Sequence record: OQ870555.1
Strand: one strand, 5' to 3'
DNA length: 64,000 nucleotides
Source of the DNA: Escherichia phage PECP14
The notes beneath the pieces were generated by a model, which did no database searches, was not told where the DNA came from, and worked only from the letters and a program-made list of their open reading frames with translations. How positions within the stretch are numbered: position 1 is the first letter of the stretch; each line of letters starts with the position of its first letter. The position numbers were made by a program, and so were the translations under genes. Shown in pieces: positions 7,065 through 63,069 of the stretch.

Positions 7065-7096
7065 AAAACCCCAGTGGATTTCCACTGGGGTTTATT
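7065..7096. terminator. bidirectional rho-independent terminator between convergent tail and replication modules
   Basis: AAAA-CCCCAGTGG-ATTT-CCACTGGGG-TTTATT: perfect 9-bp stem, A-run before and T-run after, between the stop at 7061 and the minus-strand stop at 7098. Confidence 0.8.
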
Positions 7097-45288: not shown

Positions 45289-45672
45289 TAATTTAAAAGA
45301 CTAGTAAATCGGTAGACGAAAGCCCAAGCATCTTACCTCGCAGCAGCGGTTGAAATACGAGGTTAAATAAGACCGCTGACCATACTATAAAGTATAATCT
45401 ATTGGAGATTATGTTTATTACATCAGACATTTAATCTGACACGTAAAAACAAAAGGTCGTTGGTAGTACCAACACAACTTCAAAGATCAACGCTCAAGTA
45501 TGAAAGCTGAAAAGTTAAAAGCACTCAAACTTCTAACCTTCTAAAGCTAAAAGATGCAAAGTATTCGTTGATGATTCAAACCCTAGATCAAAGGTACATG
45601 GCTCATAAGATATGGCCTGTGGCGCCTCTAGGCTGTTTATCGGTTTACTAGTCTCTCAATTTAAAAATGTAT

Positions 45673-45701
45673 TTGCTAATTAGTTTAGTTTTCTGTATAA
45701 T
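45673..45701 (+). promoter_or_regulatory. early promoter module
   Basis: TTGCTA-17 nt-TATAAT, then ..TTTAAATTGATGAGACGAGG..ATG. Confidence 0.65.
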
Positions 45702-45731
45702 ATATTTTTAAATTGATGAGACGAGGCTATT

Positions 45732-53074: not shown

Positions 53075-53100
53075 ATAGCCCTCTAAGCGAGGGCTATTAT
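53075..53100 (+). terminator. rho-independent terminator after pnuC
   Basis: ATAGCCCTC-TAAGC-GAGGGCTAT followed by TATAC. Confidence 0.65.
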
Positions 53101-53114
53101 ACAGAAATTTTCAC

Positions 53115-53143
53115 TTGCTTTATATAGAAAATTTCTGTATAAT
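53115..53143 (+). promoter_or_regulatory. early promoter module
   Basis: TTGCTT-17 nt-TATAAT, then ..ATAAATTTGAGAGAGGAATCAAAC-ATG. Confidence 0.65.
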
Positions 53144-53173
53144 ATATTTATAAATTTGAGAGAGGAATCAAAC

Positions 53174-56528: not shown

Positions 56529-56714
56529 ATGACAACTCGTGCAATTGCTCGACTAGAAGCTGATCGTGATAATCTGATTAATAATATTAAGGTTCGTGGT
56601 AATATTATTAAGGCTCTGAAAGCTGAACTTCTTGAAGAACTTCAAGGTCAAGTAGAGCGTCGTGAAGCTCTAAAAGAGGTTGAGGAAGCTATCGAAAAAC
56701 TCAAAACTGAGTAA
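56529..56714 (+). CDS. hypothetical coiled-coil protein
   Basis: 61 aa ORF with RBS GAGGAAATAG. Confidence 0.45.
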   Translation: MTTRAIARLEADRDNLINNIKVRGNIIKALKAELLEELQGQVERREALKEVEEAIEKLKTE

Positions 56715-57084: not shown

Positions 57085-57287
57085 AACAAATAGAGTAAAG
57101 GCTACAGTAGGTGCACCCTTACGGACTGCTACACCGGACTCTATTCATTAACAAACATTCTAGCGTGGTGGAGAGGGGACACCAGCTTGCCGAGGGTAGA
57201 AGCTCGTTCGATTCGAGTGAAAGAATGGTTCTCGTAAATCCGCACAAGTGATAGCAGGTTCAAGTCCTGCCTAGATTGACTTATTAT
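57085..57287 (+). other. tRNA-like remnants / unassigned structured segment
   Basis: Two T-arm-like hairpins (GCTCG-TTCGATT-CGAGT near 57202-57218; GCAGG-TTCAAGT-CCTGC at 57254-57270) and an acceptor-like pairing ATAGAGT/ACTCTAT (57090-57146), but no complete cloverleaf or CCA in my folds. Confidence 0.35.
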
Positions 57288-57361: not shown

Positions 57362-57609
57362 AATTTAGGTTTCTGCTTCCTAGAGAACGAACTCCTAGAT
57401 AAACAAGGTGATGAGTTTCCGGCCGGTTCTAGTCGCTGAAAATCCTCCCGACCAGGTAGGTGTAAGTAAACGAAAGTTTACTTATTAAGTAAGTCCGACA
57501 CATCGGCGGGTGTGTTCTAGTACTTAAAGAAGGTCTAGCAAACTTTCTCGCTAGCATGAGTTGATAGCTCGGTGACTTACCTAATAAGTAAATTTATTAA
57601 AAAATGTAG

Positions 57610-58660: not shown

Positions 58661-59020
58661 TTGCAAATGCAATTATCAAGCAAGGTTCAAGGCTATTTCG
58701 GACATGTAACAATGGAGTTCGCTATCTCTAAAGGTTGGGACTTCGAACAAGATTTAGCTGAGTTCTACAAAGATATTGATCTGAACGTACCGTACATGGG
58801 ACTCTCAACTGGTCAAGAGATCACAGAAGCCGACGTGTTCAAGGCAAGTCAAGGTGAGGTAACACCTAGTTTTGCCGAGTTCTGGTTAGGTATCACACTG
58901 AAAGAAGATGCACCGGATAGTGGAGTACTAATGACTAGTATGCACTCTGGAAGCTCTGATTACCTTTTCGTTAGTGACGTTAAGGAAATACAAGAAATCT
59001 GCAAAAATGTACTTGCTTGA
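58661..59020 (+). CDS. hypothetical protein (TTG start per track; ATG 6 nt downstream)
   Basis: 119 aa ORF with RBS AAGGAATTG. Confidence 0.5.
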   Translation: MQMQLSSKVQGYFGHVTMEFAISKGWDFEQDLAEFYKDIDLNVPYMGLSTGQEITEADVFKASQGEVTPSFAEFWLGITLKEDAPDSGVLMTSMHSGSSDYLFVSDVKEIQEICKNVLA

Positions 59021-59041
59021 TGCTTAATTTCTTGTTATAAT
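59013..59041 (+). promoter_or_regulatory. early promoter module directing transcription into an ORF-free 0.36-kb segment
   Basis: TTGCTT-17 nt-TATAAT; overlaps the stop codon of the upstream gene. Confidence 0.6.
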
Positions 59042-59401
59042 ATTTATATAAATTGATGTGAAAATAGCTGCCTAGATATTAGGTGTATGACGTCTACACT
59101 AGCAGAGCTACCGAAAAAAGAGATCCTCAGGATAAACGCCGTAGCAAAATTAGTCTGATATCCATCAATTTAGTTCACTAAGGTATTAGCTCGACCTAGG
59201 ACTGGCTGCCAAAAAGCACGGTTGCAATTAGACCCATAATGGCGGGGGATACTTTGCAAGAAGTTCTAGATTAGTCCACTAGATTCAGCGGCAACTGAAT
59301 AGTGTATCGGGTTTGTGGAGAGCGGTTATCCTCTACTGGCTAATGTCTGAGGGTAATACGCACACCGAGCTAATAGCCTTAGTAAACTAGAAGGAATATC
59401 T

Positions 59402-59665
59402 ATGTTTGATCTTAAAGATATGGCTAAGAAACTAATGTCGCAACGTTATCAACAAAGAACCCTCCATAAACGAGTTTCCGATATGAAGAAACGTTGCAAT
59501 AATGCTAAGTATTATAATAGTCTTAATAAACTATCTGATATAGATCTTGCTAAAACTGAAGCAATATATAATCACTTAGTAGTAGAATCTGATATAGTGA
59601 ATAAAGATATTGCTAGGCTAGAAGCTCAGATTGTAGCAACTGTTCTCGATATGTATAGAGAATAA
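59402..59665 (+). CDS. hypothetical coiled-coil protein
   Basis: 87 aa ORF with RBS GAAGGAATATCT. Confidence 0.5.
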   Translation: MFDLKDMAKKLMSQRYQQRTLHKRVSDMKKRCNNAKYYNSLNKLSDIDLAKTEAIYNHLVVESDIVNKDIARLEAQIVATVLDMYRE

Positions 59666-59674
59666 ATAAATTTT

Positions 59675-59753
59675 GGGGAATGGGTCTGCATGGAGTGGAC
59701 ACCTCGCTTGCACCGAGGACATCAGAACGGTTCGATTCCGTTATTCTCCACCA
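59675..59753 (+). tRNA. tRNA-Ala (anticodon UGC)
   Basis: Acceptor GGGGAAT/ATTCTCC with G3-U70, anticodon arm CCTCG-CTTGCAC-CGAGG, T-arm AACGG-TTCGATT-CCGTT, A73, CCA. Confidence 0.75.
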
Positions 59754-59759
59754 AAATTC

Positions 59760-59835
59760 GGGGTCATAGGTTATTTGGTTAAACTTACTGCCTTGCAAGC
59801 AGTGGAACTCAGTTCAATTCTGAGTGACTCCACCA
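59760..59835 (+). tRNA. second tRNA-Ala-like (anticodon UGC), divergent sequence
   Basis: Acceptor GGGGTCA/TGACTCC also with G3-U70, anticodon arm ACTGC-CTTGCAA-GCAGT, T-arm CTCAG-TTCAATT-CTGAG, A73, CCA. Confidence 0.65.
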
Positions 59836-59854
59836 AACAAATTAAGGAAATAAT

Positions 59855-60073
59855 ATGGTATTCTTAGCAGCCTCTGTAGTTCTTGCAGCTTTAGCACTAG
59901 CTATCTATTTTAGAACTATTAAAGATTTAGCTAAAGAAAAGAAAACTTTCTTTACTGATTATTCTTGGGGCGCTCCATATACCGTCCGCTTTATCAGCTT
60001 AGAAGCTATGCTGATAATGGTATTCAGTGGTATAGGTTCCGTTGTTACAGGGTTACTATTTATTTCTAACTAA
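59855..60073 (+). CDS. hypothetical small membrane protein
   Basis: 72 aa; two hydrophobic segments; RBS AAGGAAATAAT. Confidence 0.5.
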   Translation: MVFLAASVVLAALALAIYFRTIKDLAKEKKTFFTDYSWGAPYTVRFISLEAMLIMVFSGIGSVVTGLLFISN

Positions 60074-60080
60074 ATAAAAT

Positions 60081-60161
60081 GGGGATGTGGCGAAATTGGC
60101 AGACGCGCTAGATTTAGGTTCTAGTCTTCGGGTGTGGGTTCGAGTCCCTCCATCCCTACCA
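60081..60161 (+). tRNA. tRNA-Leu (anticodon UAG)
   Basis: Acceptor GGGGATG/CATCCCT, anticodon arm CTAGA-TTTAGGT-TCTAG, about 9-nt variable region, T-loop TTCGAGT, CCA. Confidence 0.65.
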
Positions 60162-60335
60162 AACATTGGATTAACTCATGATGAAAACTCCTATAACTGA
60201 TATCTGGTTAGCTGTTAATACATTAACTAAAGAGTATGTGTTTATAGAGTATGGTCAGAGGTATGACCAAAAGATGTATAATCTCATACTTCCAGTATCC
60301 GCTAATGAAGTTTATGATTTAATCCTGAGATCTAC

Positions 60336-60426
60336 GGAAGAGCAAATCGATTAGGTGACGAAAACCACTTGGAAAGTGGCTGACTGGTAAAACGGCTTGA
60401 GAGTTCGAATCTCTCTTCTTCCGCCA
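60336..60426 (+). tRNA. tRNA-Ser (anticodon GGA), class II
   Basis: Acceptor GGAAGAG/TTCTTCC, loop TTGGAAA, long variable arm, T-arm GAGAG-TTCGAAT-CTCTC, CCA; 5' end overlaps a sub-60-aa ORF. Confidence 0.6.
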
Positions 60427-60433
60427 AACAACT

Positions 60434-60523
60434 GGAAGGTAGGACATAGTGGTATGTAACAGGTCTTGAAAACCTGCCCGCTGTAGCGATATGGTGATGG
60501 TTCGACTCCATTACCTTCCTCCA
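60434..60523 (+). tRNA. tRNA-Ser (anticodon UGA), class II
   Basis: Acceptor GGAAGGT/ACCTTCC, anticodon arm CAGGT-CTTGAAA-ACCTG, long variable arm, T-arm GATGG-TTCGACT-CCATT, CCA. Confidence 0.75.
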
Positions 60524-60541
60524 ACTAATAAGGAAAACCTT

Positions 60542-60745
60542 ATGAAACACATTGTTAAGTATACCGAAAGCGAACGTGGCTGGGGTGGTGAAATCTGGTA
60601 TCGTCCATTTGACACCGAGGCCGAAGCCTTGATGGAAGTTAATGATGTAAATAAAGATCTACCTAAAGATCATGTGCCAACATACTACATCCAAGCTGAG
60701 TATATTGGTGTTAAGGATAAGGTTCCCGAAGGTTACAAGTTTTAA
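60542..60745 (+). CDS. hypothetical protein
   Basis: Track ORF (from 60491) begins inside tRNA-Ser; ATG at 60542 (MKHIVKYTES) follows RBS AAGGAAAACC. Confidence 0.5.
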   Translation: MKHIVKYTESERGWGGEIWYRPFDTEAEALMEVNDVNKDLPKDHVPTYYIQAEYIGVKDKVPEGYKF

Positions 60746-60749
60746 ATAA

Positions 60750-61064
60750 TTCTTGAAGTATGCCGGAATCGGTAGACGGGGCTTCCTAAAGGGCGTAAGG
60801 GGAACATCCACTCCTCATAAGATACCCGAAAACGAGGCTGAGATAAATGGTCTATCTCGTGAAGGTTCAAGTCCTTCTGCTTCTTGATACATCAATGGCT
60901 CAAAGAGTAACGGTGCACCTTTCTAGAGAATTTCCTGGGCGAGAATCCAGGTGTAATCAACTAGTTGTTAGTGTGATGAGTTTCGGAGAGCCGCCACAAT
61001 TGAAGTCTTTAGAATGGGTATCGCCCTTTAGCCCCTCCGAAAGGGATAACTAGAGATTTCAATT
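60750..61064 (+). other. ORF-poor structured segment with an orphan T-arm-like hairpin and a 12-bp inverted repeat abutting tRNA-His
   Basis: GAAGG-TTCAAGT-CCTTC at 60861-60877 with no matching acceptor or CCA; arms GCCACAATTGAA (60993-61004) and TTCAATTGTGGC (61058-61069) separated by 53 nt; the 3' arm overlaps tRNA-His. Confidence 0.35.
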
Positions 61065-61141
61065 GTGGCTATATCATAATTGGTTAATGATCCTGATTGT
61101 GAATCAGGCCTATGTGGATTCGAATTCCACTAGCCACCCCA
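61065..61141 (+). tRNA. tRNA-His (anticodon GUG)
   Basis: Acceptor GTGGCTA/TAGCCAC, anticodon arm CCTGA-TTGTGAA-TCAGG, T-arm GTGGA-TTCGAAT-TCCAC, CCA. Confidence 0.8.
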
Positions 61142-61148
61142 AATATTG

Positions 61149-61222
61149 CGTCCTTATTTCAATGGAAAGAATGTAAAGCTACGAACTTTACGATCGGGGT
61201 TCGATTCCCTGAGGATGCACCA
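61149..61222 (+). tRNA. tRNA-Arg (anticodon ACG)
   Basis: Acceptor GCGTCCT/AGGATGC, anticodon arm TAAAG-CTACGAA-CTTTA, T-arm CGGGG-TTCGATT-CCCTG, CCA. Confidence 0.75.
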
Positions 61223-61246
61223 ATTAACTTATATAGGAACTAAAAT

Positions 61247-61447
61247 ATGGCTGATTTCTGCAAAGAATGCTCTATCGATATGTGGGGCAAAGATACTGGT
61301 GATCTTTCTGGTCTGATTACAGAAGCCGAAGTTAAAGAAGGCTATGGTGCTGTTGTAATCTGTGAAGGTTGTGGTATTATTCGTGTTGATCATAATGGTA
61401 AACGTCTAGAAGAACCAGATCCAATTGCCACGGTTCCTGTAGAATAA
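61247..61447 (+). CDS. hypothetical small Cys-containing protein
   Basis: 66 aa; CKEC...CEGCG; RBS ATAGGAAC. Confidence 0.5.
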   Translation: MADFCKECSIDMWGKDTGDLSGLITEAEVKEGYGAVVICEGCGIIRVDHNGKRLEEPDPIATVPVE

Positions 61448-61454
61448 AAATTAT

Positions 61455-61530
61455 TGGGATGTAGATCAATTGGCAGATCGTCGGCCTCTGACTCCGAAGG
61501 TTCCACGTTCGATCCGTGGCATCCCAGCCA
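61455..61530 (+). tRNA. tRNA-Gln (anticodon CUG)
   Basis: Acceptor TGGGATG/CATCCCA with U1-A72, loop CTCTGAC, T-arm CCACG-TTCGATC-CGTGG, CCA. Confidence 0.7.
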
Positions 61531-61536
61531 AATACT

Positions 61537-61612
61537 TGGAGAGTAGTGTAACGGTTAGCACAACGGCCTTTGACTCCGTTAATGGTAGGTTCGATTCCTC
61601 CTTCTCCAGCCA
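61537..61612 (+). tRNA. tRNA-Gln (anticodon UUG)
   Basis: Acceptor TGGAGAG/TTCTCCA with U1-A72, loop CTTTGAC, T-loop TTCGATT, CCA. Confidence 0.7.
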
Positions 61613-61618
61613 ATTTAT

Positions 61619-61693
61619 GCGTGATTAGTTCAGTGGCTAGAATAACTGGCTTCCAACCAGTAGACACGAGTTCGACTCTCGTATCCCGCACCA
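61619..61693 (+). tRNA. tRNA-Gly (anticodon UCC)
   Basis: Acceptor GCGTGAT/ATCCCGC, anticodon arm ACTGG-CTTCCAA-CCAGT, T-arm ACGAG-TTCGACT-CTCGT, CCA. Confidence 0.75.
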
Positions 61694-61709
61694 AATATAA
61701 GGAAACGTT

Positions 61710-61931
61710 ATGCACGTTTTTGAGTTTCGTAATAAAAACCCTAATAGACGAGTTTTAATTATTGGTGAAACATATCGAGCTTATGAGCAAGAAGATGGTT
61801 CGGTTTTATTAAATGATGAAAAGCAAGGCTATAGTTTTCATCCAGAAGAAACATATGAGGAATTTCGTACTAAGTTTCTTTTACCAGACTGGCTAGCAAT
61901 AGCTGAGCAAAGAGAACCCGAAGATGGCTGA
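61710..61931 (+). CDS. hypothetical protein
   Basis: 73 aa ORF with RBS AAGGAAACGTT. Confidence 0.5.
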   Translation: MHVFEFRNKNPNRRVLIIGETYRAYEQEDGSVLLNDEKQGYSFHPEETYEEFRTKFLLPDWLAIAEQREPEDG

Positions 61932-62098
61932 TAATCTAAAGCTAAAGGTAGATAAACAAATGAAGTGCGTTGAGGTTGAGTTGGGTGAAGAACGTTTAAA
62001 ACTCTCCTTCGAATTCTTACAACAGTTGGCTATGACAGTAATGTCTGATAAGTCTCCTGTATTTGAAAAAGAAATTCCGTTGAAATAACGGGTTTATT

Positions 62099-62173
62099 GC
62101 TCCTAAAGCATTGCTGGCAATGCAGTTGCCTTGTAAGCATCTGAACCGGGTTCGATTCCTGGTGGGAGCACCA
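62099..62173 (+). tRNA. tRNA-Thr (anticodon UGU)
   Basis: Acceptor GCTCCTA/TGGGAGC, loop CTTGTAA, T-arm CCGGG-TTCGATT-CCTGG, CCA; one mismatch in the anticodon stem. Confidence 0.65.
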
Positions 62174-62188
62174 AATTTAAAAATTCAT

Positions 62189-62217
62189 TTGCCTTCTCTC
62201 TTATTTCTTGTTATAAT
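62189..62217 (+). promoter_or_regulatory. early promoter module
   Basis: TTGCCT-17 nt-TATAAT, then ..TATAAATTAATGAGAGGGAAGGCAA-ATG. Confidence 0.6.
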
Positions 62218-62247
62218 ATTTATATAAATTAATGAGAGGGAAGGCAA

Positions 62248-62541
62248 ATGAAACGTTATCTTTCTGTCGTATTCCAAACGGGTGGTCAACGCTACACTTA
62301 CGAATTTCCTGAGTCTTGGAAAATCAAAGAGGGTGATCAAGTTGTTGTGCTAACACCTCGTGAAGGCTTCAAAGTAGTAACGGTTAAACAAGTATTTCCA
62401 AAAGATCACGAACCATCTAAGTCTATTAACTATAAGATGATTCATGGTCTGGTACGAAAAGTACCTAGAACAGAAGTCGAAGTAGATAAAACTGGAGAAG
62501 CTAAATACCAGTATACCTCTTACTTAGACGAAATGATGTAA
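62248..62541 (+). CDS. hypothetical protein
   Basis: 97 aa ORF downstream of a promoter module. Confidence 0.5.
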   Translation: MKRYLSVVFQTGGQRYTYEFPESWKIKEGDQVVVLTPREGFKVVTVKQVFPKDHEPSKSINYKMIHGLVRKVPRTEVEVDKTGEAKYQYTSYLDEMM

Positions 62542-62542
62542 T

Positions 62543-62618
62543 GCTCCGATAGTTCAAACGGTTAGAACAGGCGACCGATAATCATCAAATCTTGGTTCGA
62601 TCCCAAGTCGGAGTACCA
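62543..62618 (+). tRNA. tRNA-Ile-like (anticodon GAU), C at position 33 in my fold
   Basis: Acceptor GCTCCGA/TCGGAGT, loop CCGATAA, T-arm CTTGG-TTCGATC-CCAAG, CCA; anticodon stem has one mismatch. Confidence 0.55.
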
Positions 62619-62624
62619 AATTAT

Positions 62625-62700
62625 AGTTAGTTGGCAGAGTGGTTATGCACCTCCTTCATACGGAGTGACTACAGTGGTTCAAATCCACTACTAACTACTA
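62625..62700 (+). tRNA. tRNA with CAU anticodon, copy 3; 3'-CCA not encoded
   Basis: Acceptor AGTTAGT/ACTAACT, loop TTCATAC, T-arm AGTGG-TTCAAAT-CCACT; sequence after the discriminator is CTA. Confidence 0.6.
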
Positions 62701-63069
62701 AACAGAGGATCAGGTCATTGTACCAGATCCTGCTGAGAAGAGAGTCCACATTCTATAAATGCCCGGGCGTGACAGCAGGAAGTAGACTGCAACTCCATGC
62801 TATCCAGGAGTATAAATGTAGAAGCTAGGACTTTAGATAGACATTGTCTTAGCGTGAGCAATCACGTAGTTGCAACAGACCTGGAAGATCGCAACGTTAA
62901 AATCAAAGTTCCAGTGCTTATTTATCTAATCGAGACCATCAATCTCACCGGAATGCTAGCACCCCAACAGTAGCTAGTGATTAGATAATAAGCAAGCCTG
63001 CCTTCCAGTTTTTATCTTGCTTCTGGGTTAACAAAAAGCTGAGCCAAATTCTAACATCAGGGAGATCTA

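What the first reader, a model, noticed from the sequence alone, without database searches (positions are those of the whole stretch)
60750..61071. Orphan T-arm motif and a 12-bp inverted repeat that sequesters the 5' end of tRNA-His
A T-arm-like hairpin at 60861-60877 has no matching acceptor stem or CCA. Downstream, GCCACAATTGAA (60993-61004) pairs perfectly with TTCAATTGTGGC (61058-61069), whose last 5 nt are the first 5 nt of tRNA-His. This could be a processing or regulatory structure for tRNA-His, or a recombination scar. The track ORF 60847..61053 runs through both and is probably spurious.
Basis: seen in the sequence. Interest (0 to 1): 0.5.

Follow-up and report, generated by a model that had tools for sequence, protein, structure and literature searches.

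The report
T5-type stable RNA genes before tRNA-His
The flagged stretch holds this T5-like phage's copies of three small stable RNA genes already annotated in phage T5, and the inverted repeat is a conserved, roughly 20-bp RNA hairpin joining one of them to tRNA-His, probably a processing site.

Summary
The window is a T5-like phage (Epseptimavirus) with 28 tRNA genes. The region 60750-61071 is not junk and not a protein gene. It aligns base for base with the stretch that GenBank AY692264 (phage T5) annotates as misc_RNA genes RNA1, RNAI and RNAIII, directly upstream of tRNA-His.

The "orphan" T-arm (60861-60877) belongs to RNA1 (60752-60896). RNA1 is a class-II tRNA-like RNA with a covarying 6-bp acceptor stem, D-arm, long variable arm and no CCA. 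A conserved insertion of about 48 nt replaces the anticodon loop.

The repeat is real and extends to 20 bp (60993-61012 / 61050-61069). Its left arm starts at the discriminator and CCA end of RNAI (60897-60996). Its right arm ends in U(-1) and G1-C5 of tRNA-His.

Six unrelated hairpin interiors occur in relatives, yet a 12-21 bp outer helix (18-21 bp in four of the six) is always kept. It is kept through compensatory changes and G·U wobbles that only work in plus-strand RNA.

The T5-annotated RNAIII ends lie on this helix with a 2-nt 3' overhang. I therefore infer excision by host RNase III, but this is not shown. ORF 60847-61053 is spurious. The finding is mostly a rediscovery, and the function of these RNAs is still unknown.

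The parts
60752..60896 (+). Homologue of the T5 misc_RNA 'RNA1': a class-II tRNA-like RNA plus a 3' linker.
   Evidence: blastn of T5 RNA1 (144 nt): 82% identity over 60752-60896. Alignment to T5. Covariance model hit 170 bits.
60755..60760 (+). RNA1 acceptor-type stem, 5' strand GAAGTA. It pairs with 60878-60883.
   Evidence: helix 1 has 4 pairs with compensatory double changes (T5 GGAATA/TGTTCC; Klebsiella phage GATGCCG/CGGGGTT).
60763..60779 (+). RNA1 D-arm (CCG-GAATCGGTAGA-CGG), tRNA-Leu-like.
   Evidence: Invariant in 17 sequences. The best local match is to the D-arm of the window's tRNA-Leu(UAG).
60781..60838 (+). Anticodon-type stem (60781-60785 / 60834-60838) enclosing a 48-nt insertion (60786-60833). 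The insertion carries hairpin 60799-60816 with the invariant loop ACATCCAC (60804-60811).
   Evidence: helices 3-5 are 94-100% paired, and 6 pairs show compensatory changes.
60840..60858 (+). RNA1 long variable arm (GAGAT...ATCTC). The ATG of the spurious ORF (60847) lies in its loop.
60861..60877 (+).
60878..60883 (+). RNA1 acceptor-type stem, 3' strand TGCTTC. No CCA follows.
60884..60895 (+). Small linker hairpin TTGATACATCAA between RNA1 and RNAI. It is the site of a 114-nt insertion in phage NBSal002.
60897..60996 (+). Homologue of the T5 stable RNA 'RNAI' (100 nt here, 107 nt in T5): GGCTC...GAGCC-G-CCA.
   Evidence: the terminal stem GGCUC/GAGCC changes to GGCCC/GGGCC in Klebsiella phages, and the apical hairpin has 4 covarying pairs.
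60997..61000 (+). 4-nt spacer CAAT between the RNAI CCA end and the RNAIII-equivalent 5' end. It is inferred by homology to the T5 annotation.
61001..61063 (+). RNAIII-equivalent hairpin RNA (63 nt, against 106 nt in T5). The interior 61013-61049 is unrelated to T5's.
60993..61012 (+). Left arm of the 20-bp helix. It comprises the RNAI discriminator G, the CCA, the spacer and the RNAIII 5' end.
61050..61069 (+). Right arm of the 20-bp helix. It comprises the RNAIII 3' end, U(-1) at 61064 and tRNA-His G1-C5.
61065..61141 (+). tRNA-His(GUG), with a 7-bp acceptor stem GUGGCUA/UAGCCAC, C73, an encoded CCA and U at -1 (no encoded G-1).
60847..61053 (+). Mechanical ORF (68 aa) running through RNA1, RNAI and RNAIII. 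It is not a gene.

Best explanation
The region carries three co-transcribed small stable RNA genes, as annotated in phage T5: RNA1, RNAI and RNAIII. RNA1 is a tRNA-Leu-like cloverleaf whose anticodon loop is replaced by a conserved structured insertion, and it has no CCA. RNAI is a roughly 100-nt structured RNA closed by a 5-bp acceptor-like stem and ending in G-CCA. The third is an RNAIII-type hairpin. The inverted repeat is the base of that hairpin. In the precursor transcript, a helix of about 20 bp pairs the discriminator, CCA and trailer of RNAI with the leader and first five nucleotides of tRNA-His. Most likely mechanism (inferred): this helix is a processing stem. Host RNase III would cut it with a 2-nt stagger. 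That would release RNAI with a 4-nt trailer (later trimmed to CCA), a free RNAIII hairpin of about 63 nt, and tRNA-His with a 1-nt leader. After the cut, the tRNA-His acceptor stem can form. Shown here: homology and synteny with the T5 RNA genes, the RNA1 cloverleaf covariation, and conservation of the helix by compensatory change at the RNA level. Inferred: that the RNAs accumulate in this phage, and that RNase III is the enzyme.
For: Identity. The T5 record AY692264 annotates misc_RNA RNA1 (144 nt), RNAI (107 nt) and RNAIII (106 nt) between T5p061 and tRNA-His. The window aligns along that whole stretch, and RNA1 is 82% identical. RNA1 structure: 96% of cells are paired, against 42-52% for slid controls, and 10 pairs carry compensatory changes. 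Its covariance model also scores genuine class-II tRNAs end to end, including the window's tRNA-Leu(UAG) at 37.7 bits. RNAI: the terminal stem and apical hairpin covary. Hairpin: 20-nt arms. The z-score is -3.85 for 60885-61070. The repeat is rare by chance. Among the sequences compared, the arms are invariant while the interior is replaced. Six unrelated interiors all keep an uninterrupted outer helix of 12-21 bp that starts at the RNAI N73/CCA. The lengths are 20 (window type), 20 (T5 type), 14, 12, 21 and 18 bp. Compensatory changes: G:C to A:U in L019 and A:U to G:C in L035. In Klebsiella Sugarlandvirus phages the pairing is CCAAAUUUGAGUA/UACUCAAAUUUGG instead of GCCACAAUUGAA/UUCAAUUGUGGC. 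Imperfections are G·U, and the plus strand folds better than its reverse complement in every class. RNase III: the helix length fits the roughly two turns that RNase III needs (established knowledge). The T5-annotated RNAIII 5' nucleotide pairs with the third nucleotide from its 3' end, which gives a 2-nt 3' overhang. RNase III takes part in T4 tRNA maturation (PMC4810235).
Against: No expression or end-mapping data exist for this phage. I could not read the 1980s papers behind the T5 annotation, so the annotated RNAIII ends may be partly predicted. The L019-type (14 bp) and L035-type (12+7 bp) helices are short for RNase III. The RNAIII 3' end could equally be made by RNase P cutting at tRNA-His. 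The nearest-neighbour model favours the full hairpin over the tRNA-His cloverleaf (-82.0 against -69.5 kcal/mol), but it ignores tRNA tertiary structure. The functions of RNA1, RNAI and RNAIII remain unknown. The T5 tRNA region is a dispensable deletion hotspot (PMC12483538).
Confidence: 0.6

Rival explanations
1. RNAIII is an independently functional stable hairpin RNA. The long helix is simply its own terminal stem, which stabilises it against exonucleases. Its overlap with the RNAI CCA and the tRNA-His 5' end is a by-product of tight gene packing. Its ends would be made by RNase P (3' end, at tRNA-His) and by RNase E or another nuclease, not by RNase III.
For: RNAIII is annotated as a separate RNA in T5. 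Each cassette carries its own extension of the stem. The RNAIII 3' end abuts tRNA-His, where RNase P cuts anyway. In L064 the hairpin persists away from tRNA-His.
Against: Six unrelated interiors argue against a sequence-specific function. The helix always reaches back to include the RNAI CCA, even when the sequence is entirely different (Klebsiella types). The annotated termini have a 2-nt stagger, which RNase P plus RNase E would not obviously produce.
Confidence: 0.22
2. The hairpin is a regulatory or specificity device for tRNA-His. By pairing U(-1) and G1-C5 it delays acceptor-stem formation. It may also fix the cleavage site so that the mature tRNA-His keeps an extra 5' nucleotide (U-1), substituting for the G-1 that HisRS normally requires.
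For: tRNA-His has U, not G, at -1 in all 25 distinct versions examined. The T5 record annotates tRNA-His as 78 nt starting at U(-1). The staggered cut implied by the RNAIII ends falls exactly between -2 and -1. Folding predicts sequestration of G1-C5 in the precursor.
Against: The register differs between subfamilies. The CCA pairs with tRNA positions 2-4 in T5-like phages but with -1 to +2 in Klebsiella phages. In L064 the hairpin is detached from tRNA-His. The constant partner is therefore the RNAI CCA rather than the tRNA. The importance of the -1 phosphate for HisRS is taken from memory and was not tested.
Confidence: 0.12
3. A DNA-level feature: a recombination scar, a cruciform, or a homing-endonuclease or cassette-exchange site. 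On this view the arms are conserved only because they overlap RNAI and tRNA-His.
For: The interior is swapped among otherwise similar phages: Sw2 has a window-type RNAI but a T5-type interior. The tRNA region is a recombination and deletion hotspot. HNH endonuclease genes lie nearby in T5.
Against: Arm positions outside RNAI and tRNA-His (CAATTGA / TCAATTG) are replaced in a fully complementary way in Klebsiella phages. The imperfections are G·U, which would be A·C mismatches in the opposite strand, and the plus strand folds better in all classes.
Confidence: 0.04
4. ORF 60847-61053 encodes a small protein, and the repeat is incidental.
For: It is annotated as 'hypothetical protein' in several relatives. 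It has a PHROG 24969 hit, E = 6e-21.
Against: The PHROG hit covers only residues 23-53, which is the part over the conserved RNAI sequence. In T5-type phages the frame stops after 38 aa. The start moves by a 1-nt indel in phages 98% identical. The frame is closed in Klebsiella phages. There is no Pfam hit. The ATG lies in the RNA1 variable-arm loop.
Confidence: 0.02

Closest known systems
Phage T5 stable RNA genes rna1 (RNA1), rnaI (RNAI) and rnaIII (RNAIII), annotated as misc_RNA in GenBank AY692264. Cloning is described in Ksenzenko et al. 1982, Biochim Biophys Acta 697:235 (reference seen).
   Same: Same position, between a small ORF or tRNA-Ser and tRNA-His. RNA1 is 82% identical. RNAI has the same ends (GGCTCAAAG...GAGAGCCGCCA) and the same 4-nt spacer. 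The first 12 bp of the hairpin are identical.
   Different: RNAI is 100 nt rather than 107 nt, and its middle part has diverged. The RNAIII equivalent is 63 nt rather than 106 nt, with an unrelated interior: a 3-way junction instead of a 4-way junction.
Phage T4 species 1 and species 2 stable RNAs (rnaC, rnaD) at the end of the T4 tRNA cluster.
   Same: They are small stable RNAs of unknown function embedded in a phage tRNA cluster. rnaC has a T-arm and an acceptor-like closure without an encoded CCA, like RNA1. rnaD ends in ...CACCA, like RNAI.
   Different: No detectable homology: the RNA1 model finds nothing in the T4 locus at E <= 1. The order and neighbours also differ.
RNase III processing stems, such as those in phage T7 early mRNA, the rRNA operon stems and the T4 tRNA precursor.
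   Same: A roughly 20-bp double-stranded stem flanking RNAs that must be separated. The annotated T5 termini give a 2-nt 3' overhang. RNase III is implicated in T4 tRNA maturation.
   Different: Cleavage has not been demonstrated. Some variants have only 12-14 uninterrupted bp.
Canonical class-II tRNA (tRNA-Leu).
   Same: RNA1 has the D-arm, long variable arm, T-arm and acceptor stem. The model built on RNA1 scores real tRNA-Leu genes.
   Different: A 48-nt structured insertion replaces the 7-nt anticodon loop. Position 1:72 is U·U. There is no CCA. Neither ARAGORN nor Rfam calls it.

Membership tests
T5 RNA1/RNAI/RNAIII stable RNA locus | Synteny: lies between tRNA-Ser or a small ORF and tRNA-His, on the tRNA strand | tested here: met
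T5 RNA1/RNAI/RNAIII stable RNA locus | Sequence homology to RNA1 and RNAI | tested here: met
   RNA1 is 82% identical over 145 nt. The RNAI ends and apical hairpin align with covariation. blastn alone does not detect RNAI.
T5 RNA1/RNAI/RNAIII stable RNA locus | Sequence homology to RNAIII | tested here: not met
   Only the basal 12 bp of the stem are shared and the interior is unrelated. Position and helix are conserved.
T5 RNA1/RNAI/RNAIII stable RNA locus | Accumulation as discrete stable RNAs in infected cells | not testable with these tools
   No RNA data are available. This rests on the T5 annotation.
Canonical tRNA | Cloverleaf with acceptor, D, anticodon and T arms | tested here: met
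   (96% paired, 10 covarying pairs).
Canonical tRNA | 7-nt anticodon loop with a readable anticodon | tested here: not met
   The loop is replaced by a 48-nt insertion. The junction nucleotides are not conserved (CUAAA in the window, CGAAU in T5).
Canonical tRNA | Recognised by tRNA detectors, with a 3' CCA or a discriminator context | tested here: not met
   ARAGORN and Rfam at E <= 10 give nothing at 60750-60890, and no CCA is present.
RNase III processing stem | Uninterrupted dsRNA of about two helical turns | tested here: met
   20 bp here and 18-21 bp in four of the six classes.
RNase III processing stem | Staggered cuts that leave 2-nt 3' overhangs | tested here: inconclusive
   The geometry fits the T5-annotated RNAIII ends, but the experimental basis of those ends could not be checked.
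RNase III processing stem | Cleavage depends on RNase III | not testable with these tools
   Needs an rnc mutant or an in vitro assay.
Intrinsic terminator | GC-rich hairpin followed by a U-tract | tested here: not met
   The hairpin is followed directly by tRNA-His and the scan does not list it.
tmRNA (standard or permuted) | tRNA-like domain with a tag reading frame, detected by ARAGORN or Rfam | tested here: not met
Protein-coding gene (ORF 60847-61053) | Reading frame conserved among homologues | tested here: not met
   Supporting results.
T4 rnaC / rnaD | Detectable sequence and structure homology | tested here: not met
   No R1 hit in the T4 locus L053. Only RNA1 was tested. RNAI was not modelled.

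The most novel reading that the evidence does not exclude
The roughly 20-bp clamp may be a conserved docking frame for a rapidly exchanged RNA cassette, with at least six unrelated interiors in circulating T5-like phages. Its RNase III cut would do double duty. It would free the CCA end of RNAI, and it would create a tRNA-His that keeps a 5'-phosphorylated U(-1), a phage-specific substitute for the encoded G-1 of host tRNA-His. In the same reading, the tRNA-Leu-like RNA1, with its anticodon loop replaced by an invariant hairpin, together with the variable RNAIII cassettes, would act as decoys against tRNA-targeting host defences.
Probability: 0.12. Interest if true: 0.6.

Novelty: new member of a known kind. 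Interest (0 to 1): 0.3.

Why it matters
Phage tRNA clusters are now known to counter tRNA-targeting defences. T5 tRNAs, for example, counteract PARIS (PMC11464382) and a retron (as cited in PMC10644984). The tRNA-like stable RNAs that sit among them in T5 and T4 have had no assigned function for about 40 years.

Genome annotators routinely call a spurious 'hypothetical protein' over these RNA genes, and PHROG 24969 appears to be built from such calls. Recognising the genes here corrects that annotation.

The comparative result also gives a concrete, testable handle on how these RNAs and tRNA-His are matured. The helix of about 20 bp is kept by covariation around a freely replaced interior. It always starts at the RNAI CCA, and in all but one sequence (L064) it runs into the tRNA-His 5' end.

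Tried and rejected
- **Rfam:** a scan at E <= 10 over 59000-63000 found no family in 60750-61064.
- **tmRNA, permuted tmRNA or an intron-containing tRNA:** rejected. ARAGORN and Rfam give nothing, and the insertion is far too short for a group I intron.
- **Terminator:** the T-arm itself was flagged as terminator-like, but the count is at chance level (3 found, 1.9 expected), and the big hairpin has no U-tract.
- **Promoter inside the region:** only 9/12 matches, at chance level.
- **Protein gene:** rejected.
- **Homology of RNA1 to T4 rnaC:** none detected.
- **Literature:** searches for functional or end-mapping work on T5 RNAI and RNAIII found only the 1982 reference and general reviews. 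The primary papers are not in the library.
- **Exact-motif scan of IMG/VR for the T-arm:** this mostly returned unrelated class-II tRNAs. Only the T5-like contigs were informative.
- **RNAI covariance model:** I did not build one, because the T5-type and window-type middles do not align reliably. RNAI structure therefore rests on RNAalifold and on inspection.

Full report
**What the window is.** The 801 bases around the finding are 99.5% identical to Salmonella phage GEC_vB_N7. They match 495 T5-like phage records (Demerecviridae, mostly Epseptimavirus and Tequintavirus). ARAGORN finds 28 tRNA genes between 48 kb and 62.7 kb, all on the plus strand. The finding lies between a small conserved ORF (60542-60745, PHROG 14410) and tRNA-His (61065-61141).

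**Checking the observation.**
- The T-arm-like hairpin GAAGGTTCAAGTCCTTC is at 60861-60877.
- GCCACAATTGAA (60993-61004) is the perfect complement of TTCAATTGTGGC (61058-61069). The last five bases are tRNA-His positions 1-5.
- The repeat is longer than reported: the arms are 60993-61012 and 61050-61069, 20 nt, 90% complementary. Both non-Watson-Crick positions are G·U in the plus-strand RNA.
- It is not a chance feature. Only six loci in the whole 64-kb window have a perfect inverted repeat of 12 bp or more within 120 nt. Composition-preserving shuffles give 0.64 such 12-mer pairs per window.
- Folding 60885-61070 gives -63 kcal/mol, z = -3.85, and 0 of 200 shuffles fold as well.
The T-arm does have a matching acceptor stem (see RNA1 below).

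**What it is.** GenBank AY692264 (phage T5 st0) annotates three misc_RNA genes between its small ORF T5p061 and tRNA-His. These are rna1 'RNA1' (144 nt), rnaI 'RNAI' (107 nt) and rnaIII 'RNAIII' (106 nt). RNAIII abuts tRNA-His.

The window aligns with this stretch end to end. The window equivalents are:
- RNA1: 60752-60896, 82% identical to T5 by blastn.
- RNAI: 60897-60996, GGCTCAAAG...GAGAGCC-G-CCA.
- A 4-nt spacer CAAT: 60997-61000.
- An RNAIII equivalent: 61001-61063.
- U(-1): 61064.
- tRNA-His: from 61065.

A 1982 paper on cloning of 'bacteriophage T5 stable RNAs' exists (reference seen). I could not read the primary literature, so the claim that these are expressed stable RNAs rests on the annotation.

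**RNA1: the T-arm is not orphan.** The segment 60754-60884 folds as a class-II tRNA cloverleaf:
- acceptor stem GAAGUA (60755-60760) / UGCUUC (60878-60883);
- D-arm CCG-GAAUCGGUAGA-CGG (60763-60779);
- anticodon-type stem 60781-60785 / 60834-60838;
- long variable arm 60840-60858;
- T-arm 60861-60877.

In place of a 7-nt anticodon loop there is a 48-nt insertion. It contains a hairpin (60799-60816) whose 8-nt loop ACAUCCAC is invariant.

I tested this model on 17 distinct homologues, including T5 and a Klebsiella phage in which RNA1 sits at another genomic position. The structure is 96% paired, against 42-52% when the 3' partners are slid. Ten pairs carry compensatory double changes, four of them in the acceptor stem. 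For example, T5 has GGAAUA/UGUUCC and the Klebsiella phage has GAUGCCG/CGGGGUU.

A covariance model built on this alignment also scores genuine class-II tRNAs end to end. The best in the window is tRNA-Leu(UAG), at 37.7 bits, and the D-arm is most like that tRNA's. RNA1 is therefore a tRNA-Leu-like derivative. It is not a tRNA: it has no anticodon loop and no CCA, position 1:72 is U·U, and ARAGORN and Rfam do not call it.

**RNAI.** RNAalifold on 13 diverse copies recovers a 5-bp terminal stem and a 7-bp apical hairpin. The terminal stem is GGCUC/GAGCC and becomes GGCCC/GGGCC in Klebsiella phages. The apical hairpin has four covarying pairs. The RNA ends in discriminator G (A in some phages) plus CCA. 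The middle part differs between T5-type (107 nt) and window-type (100 nt) copies.

**The hairpin in relatives.** I collected the junction from IMG/VR, from metagenomes and from annotated phages.

There are 25 distinct versions. They fall into six interior classes with no sequence similarity to each other:

| Class | Distance from RNAI CCA to tRNA +1 (nt) | Uninterrupted outer helix (bp) |
|---|---|---|
| T5-type | 111 | 20 |
| Window-type | 68 | 20 |
| L019-type | 33 | 14 |
| L035-type | 138 | 12 (then 7 more after a bulge) |
| L065-type | 126 | 21 |
| Klebsiella Sugarlandvirus types | 148-152 | 18 |

In every version the MFE fold has an uninterrupted outer helix that starts at the RNAI discriminator or CCA. 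In all but one it ends in the 5' end of tRNA-His.

Pairing is kept by compensatory change:
- G:C becomes A:U in L019, and A:U becomes G:C in L035.
- U:A becomes C:G between two Klebsiella phages.
- The whole CAAUUGA/UCAAUUG segment is replaced by AAAUUUGAG/CUCAAAUUU in Sugarlandvirus, where the tRNA-His 5' end is also different (GGGAU).

The imperfections in the helix are G·U wobbles. Every class folds 4-17 kcal/mol better as plus-strand RNA than as its reverse complement. The helix is therefore selected at the RNA level on the tRNA strand. It is not a scar or a DNA cruciform.

In one metagenomic Klebsiella-type contig (L064), an insertion of about 140 nt separates the hairpin from tRNA-His. 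The hairpin there still closes with ACCA/UGGU. The constant partner is thus the CCA end of RNAI. The overlap with tRNA-His follows from adjacency. Its register differs between subfamilies: the CCA pairs with tRNA positions 2-4 here, and with -1 to +2 in Klebsiella phages.

The window-type interior is the minority form. Only 66 of 504 matching records cover at least 80% of the query, and most stop exactly at 61004.

**How it most likely works.**

Shown:
- A helix of about 20 bp links the 3' end of one CCA-ended RNA to the 5' end of the next tRNA.
- Its length is maintained around a freely replaced interior.

Shown from the annotation: in T5 the first nucleotide of RNAIII pairs with the third nucleotide from its 3' end. 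The annotated RNA is thus a hairpin with a 2-nt 3' overhang. The four nucleotides left on RNAI (CAAU) and the single U left on tRNA-His are the complementary stubs.

This is the geometry of an RNase III cut in a two-turn helix (established knowledge of RNase III). RNase III is reported to take part in maturation of T4-encoded tRNAs (PMC4810235).

Inferred: host RNase III excises the RNAIII hairpin at 61000|61001 and 61063|61064 in this window. Exonucleases then trim RNAI back to CCA. The remaining 6 bp melt, and tRNA-His folds.

In the uncut precursor, the nearest-neighbour model prefers the full hairpin to the tRNA-His cloverleaf (-82.0 against -69.5 kcal/mol). The same five bases, GUGGC, pair with GCCAC in either case, and tRNA tertiary structure is not modelled. 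I therefore treat 'sequestration' as plausible and transient, not proven.

I put about 0.85 on the identity and conserved-RNA-structure part. I put about 0.45 on RNase III as the enzyme.

**Rivals.**
- RNAIII could be a stable RNA in its own right, with its ends made by RNase P and another nuclease.
- The hairpin could be a device that sets the tRNA-His 5' end.
  - tRNA-His has U, not G, at -1 in every version.
  - T5 annotates the tRNA from U(-1).
  - The inferred cut falls between -2 and -1.
  - From memory, HisRS needs the extra 5' nucleotide.
- The DNA-level explanation and the protein-coding explanation are disfavoured by the wobble asymmetry and by the unconserved reading frame.
  - The frame is 38 aa in T5-type phages.
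  - Its start is shifted by a 1-nt indel in 98%-identical phages.
  - It is closed in Klebsiella phages.
  - The PHROG 24969 hit covers only the residues translated from RNAI, and there is no Pfam hit.

**Comparison with what is known.**
- The locus is a member of the T5 RNA1/RNAI/RNAIII gene set. RNA1 and RNAI are orthologues. The RNAIII equivalent shares position and stem base but not interior.
- The closest analogues elsewhere are T4 rnaC and rnaD ('species 1 and 2' RNAs) in the T4 tRNA cluster. rnaC also has a T-arm and an acceptor-like closure, and rnaD ends in CACCA. The RNA1 model finds nothing in the T4 locus.
- The function of all these RNAs is unknown.
- The T5 tRNA region is a dispensable deletion hotspot (PMC12483538).

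**Verdict.** However, the finding is largely a rediscovery of RNA genes annotated in T5.

To my knowledge, two points are not spelled out in the annotation:
- the helix is conserved by covariation around at least six interchangeable interiors;
- its termini fit an RNase III cut that would leave tRNA-His with U(-1).

These are modestly interesting and directly testable. Interest is 0.3.

Noticed in passing
window 60336-60427: A tRNA-Ser(GGA) gene (GGAAGAGC...CTCTTCTTCCGCCA) that ARAGORN missed in the window. Rfam gives only a weak tRNA-Sec-model hit (23.6 bits). The orthologue is annotated or called as tRNA-Ser in phages SuperGirl and Sw2. The window therefore has at least 29 tRNA genes.
   Followed up: partly
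window 57156-57280, 59184-59315, 57494-57545: Homologues of three other T5 misc_RNA genes: rna2 (90% identical, also with a T-arm and an acceptor-like end), RNA2H (79%) and part of RNAIV (79%). The cluster thus carries several non-tRNA stable or tRNA-like RNA genes.
   Followed up: partly
window 62174-62262: A long near-perfect palindrome directly after tRNA-Thr (perfect 12-mers at 62184/62241). It spuriously matches several microRNA-precursor models in Rfam. It contains the best sigma-70-like promoter of the region (62189-62217, 10/12 matches with TG). The equivalent T5 position is annotated 'putative promoter'.
   Followed up: no
window 53095-53145, 56578-56611, 45656-45716, 7066-7093: The other perfect inverted repeats of 12 bp or more in the window. 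The one at 53095-53145 has perfect 18-bp arms separated by a 15-nt loop and lies about 380 nt upstream of tRNA-Ser 53522. None was examined.
   Followed up: no
L048 (phage NBSal002) 463-576; window site 60884-60895: A 114-nt insertion with two hairpins of its own sits inside the small TTGATA...ATCAA linker hairpin between RNA1 and RNAI. This is a second place where a conserved short stem flanks an optional cassette.
   Followed up: no
L064 (metagenome contig OKVY01000028.1), between the RNAIII-type hairpin and tRNA-His: An insertion of about 140 nt flanked by a duplicated ATTTGG and containing a promoter-like TTGACG...TATTGT. It detaches the hairpin from tRNA-His, yet the hairpin still pairs with the RNAI ACCA end.
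   Followed up: partly
window 61064-61141; L045 988-1065: tRNA-His lacks an encoded G-1 (U at -1) in all T5-like and Sugarlandvirus copies. Here the acceptor stem GUGGCUA/UAGCCAC plus C73 is, from memory, identical to E. coli tRNA-His. The Klebsiella-phage tRNA-His has a different acceptor stem and U73, so it lacks both classical HisRS identity elements.
   Followed up: partly
L045 644-729 (Klebsiella phage Uniso31): A bona fide tRNA-Ser(GCU), with exactly the same T-arm as RNA1 (GAAGGTTCAAGTCCTTC) and a CCA end, occupies the slot before RNAI where T5-like phages have RNA1. In these phages RNA1 is elsewhere in the genome (L046/L054).
   Followed up: partly
L005, L007/L020/L031, L014-L016, L029 (IMG/VR contigs unrelated to T5): The same T-arm motif occurs in odd class-II tRNA-like arrangements. 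In one, the T-arm and 3' acceptor strand are followed within 5-15 nt by the complementary 5' acceptor strand and a D-arm, which looks permuted, split or tandem. In the other, tRNAs carry an insertion of about 20 nt in the D-loop.
   Followed up: no
L047 (Klebsiella phage vB_Kpn_AM_K4, PP355766.1, 288 kb, filed under Straboviridae): It carries a Sugarlandvirus-type tRNA-Ser / RNAI / hairpin / tRNA-His / tRNA-Arg segment. The record may be a chimeric assembly of two phages.
   Followed up: no
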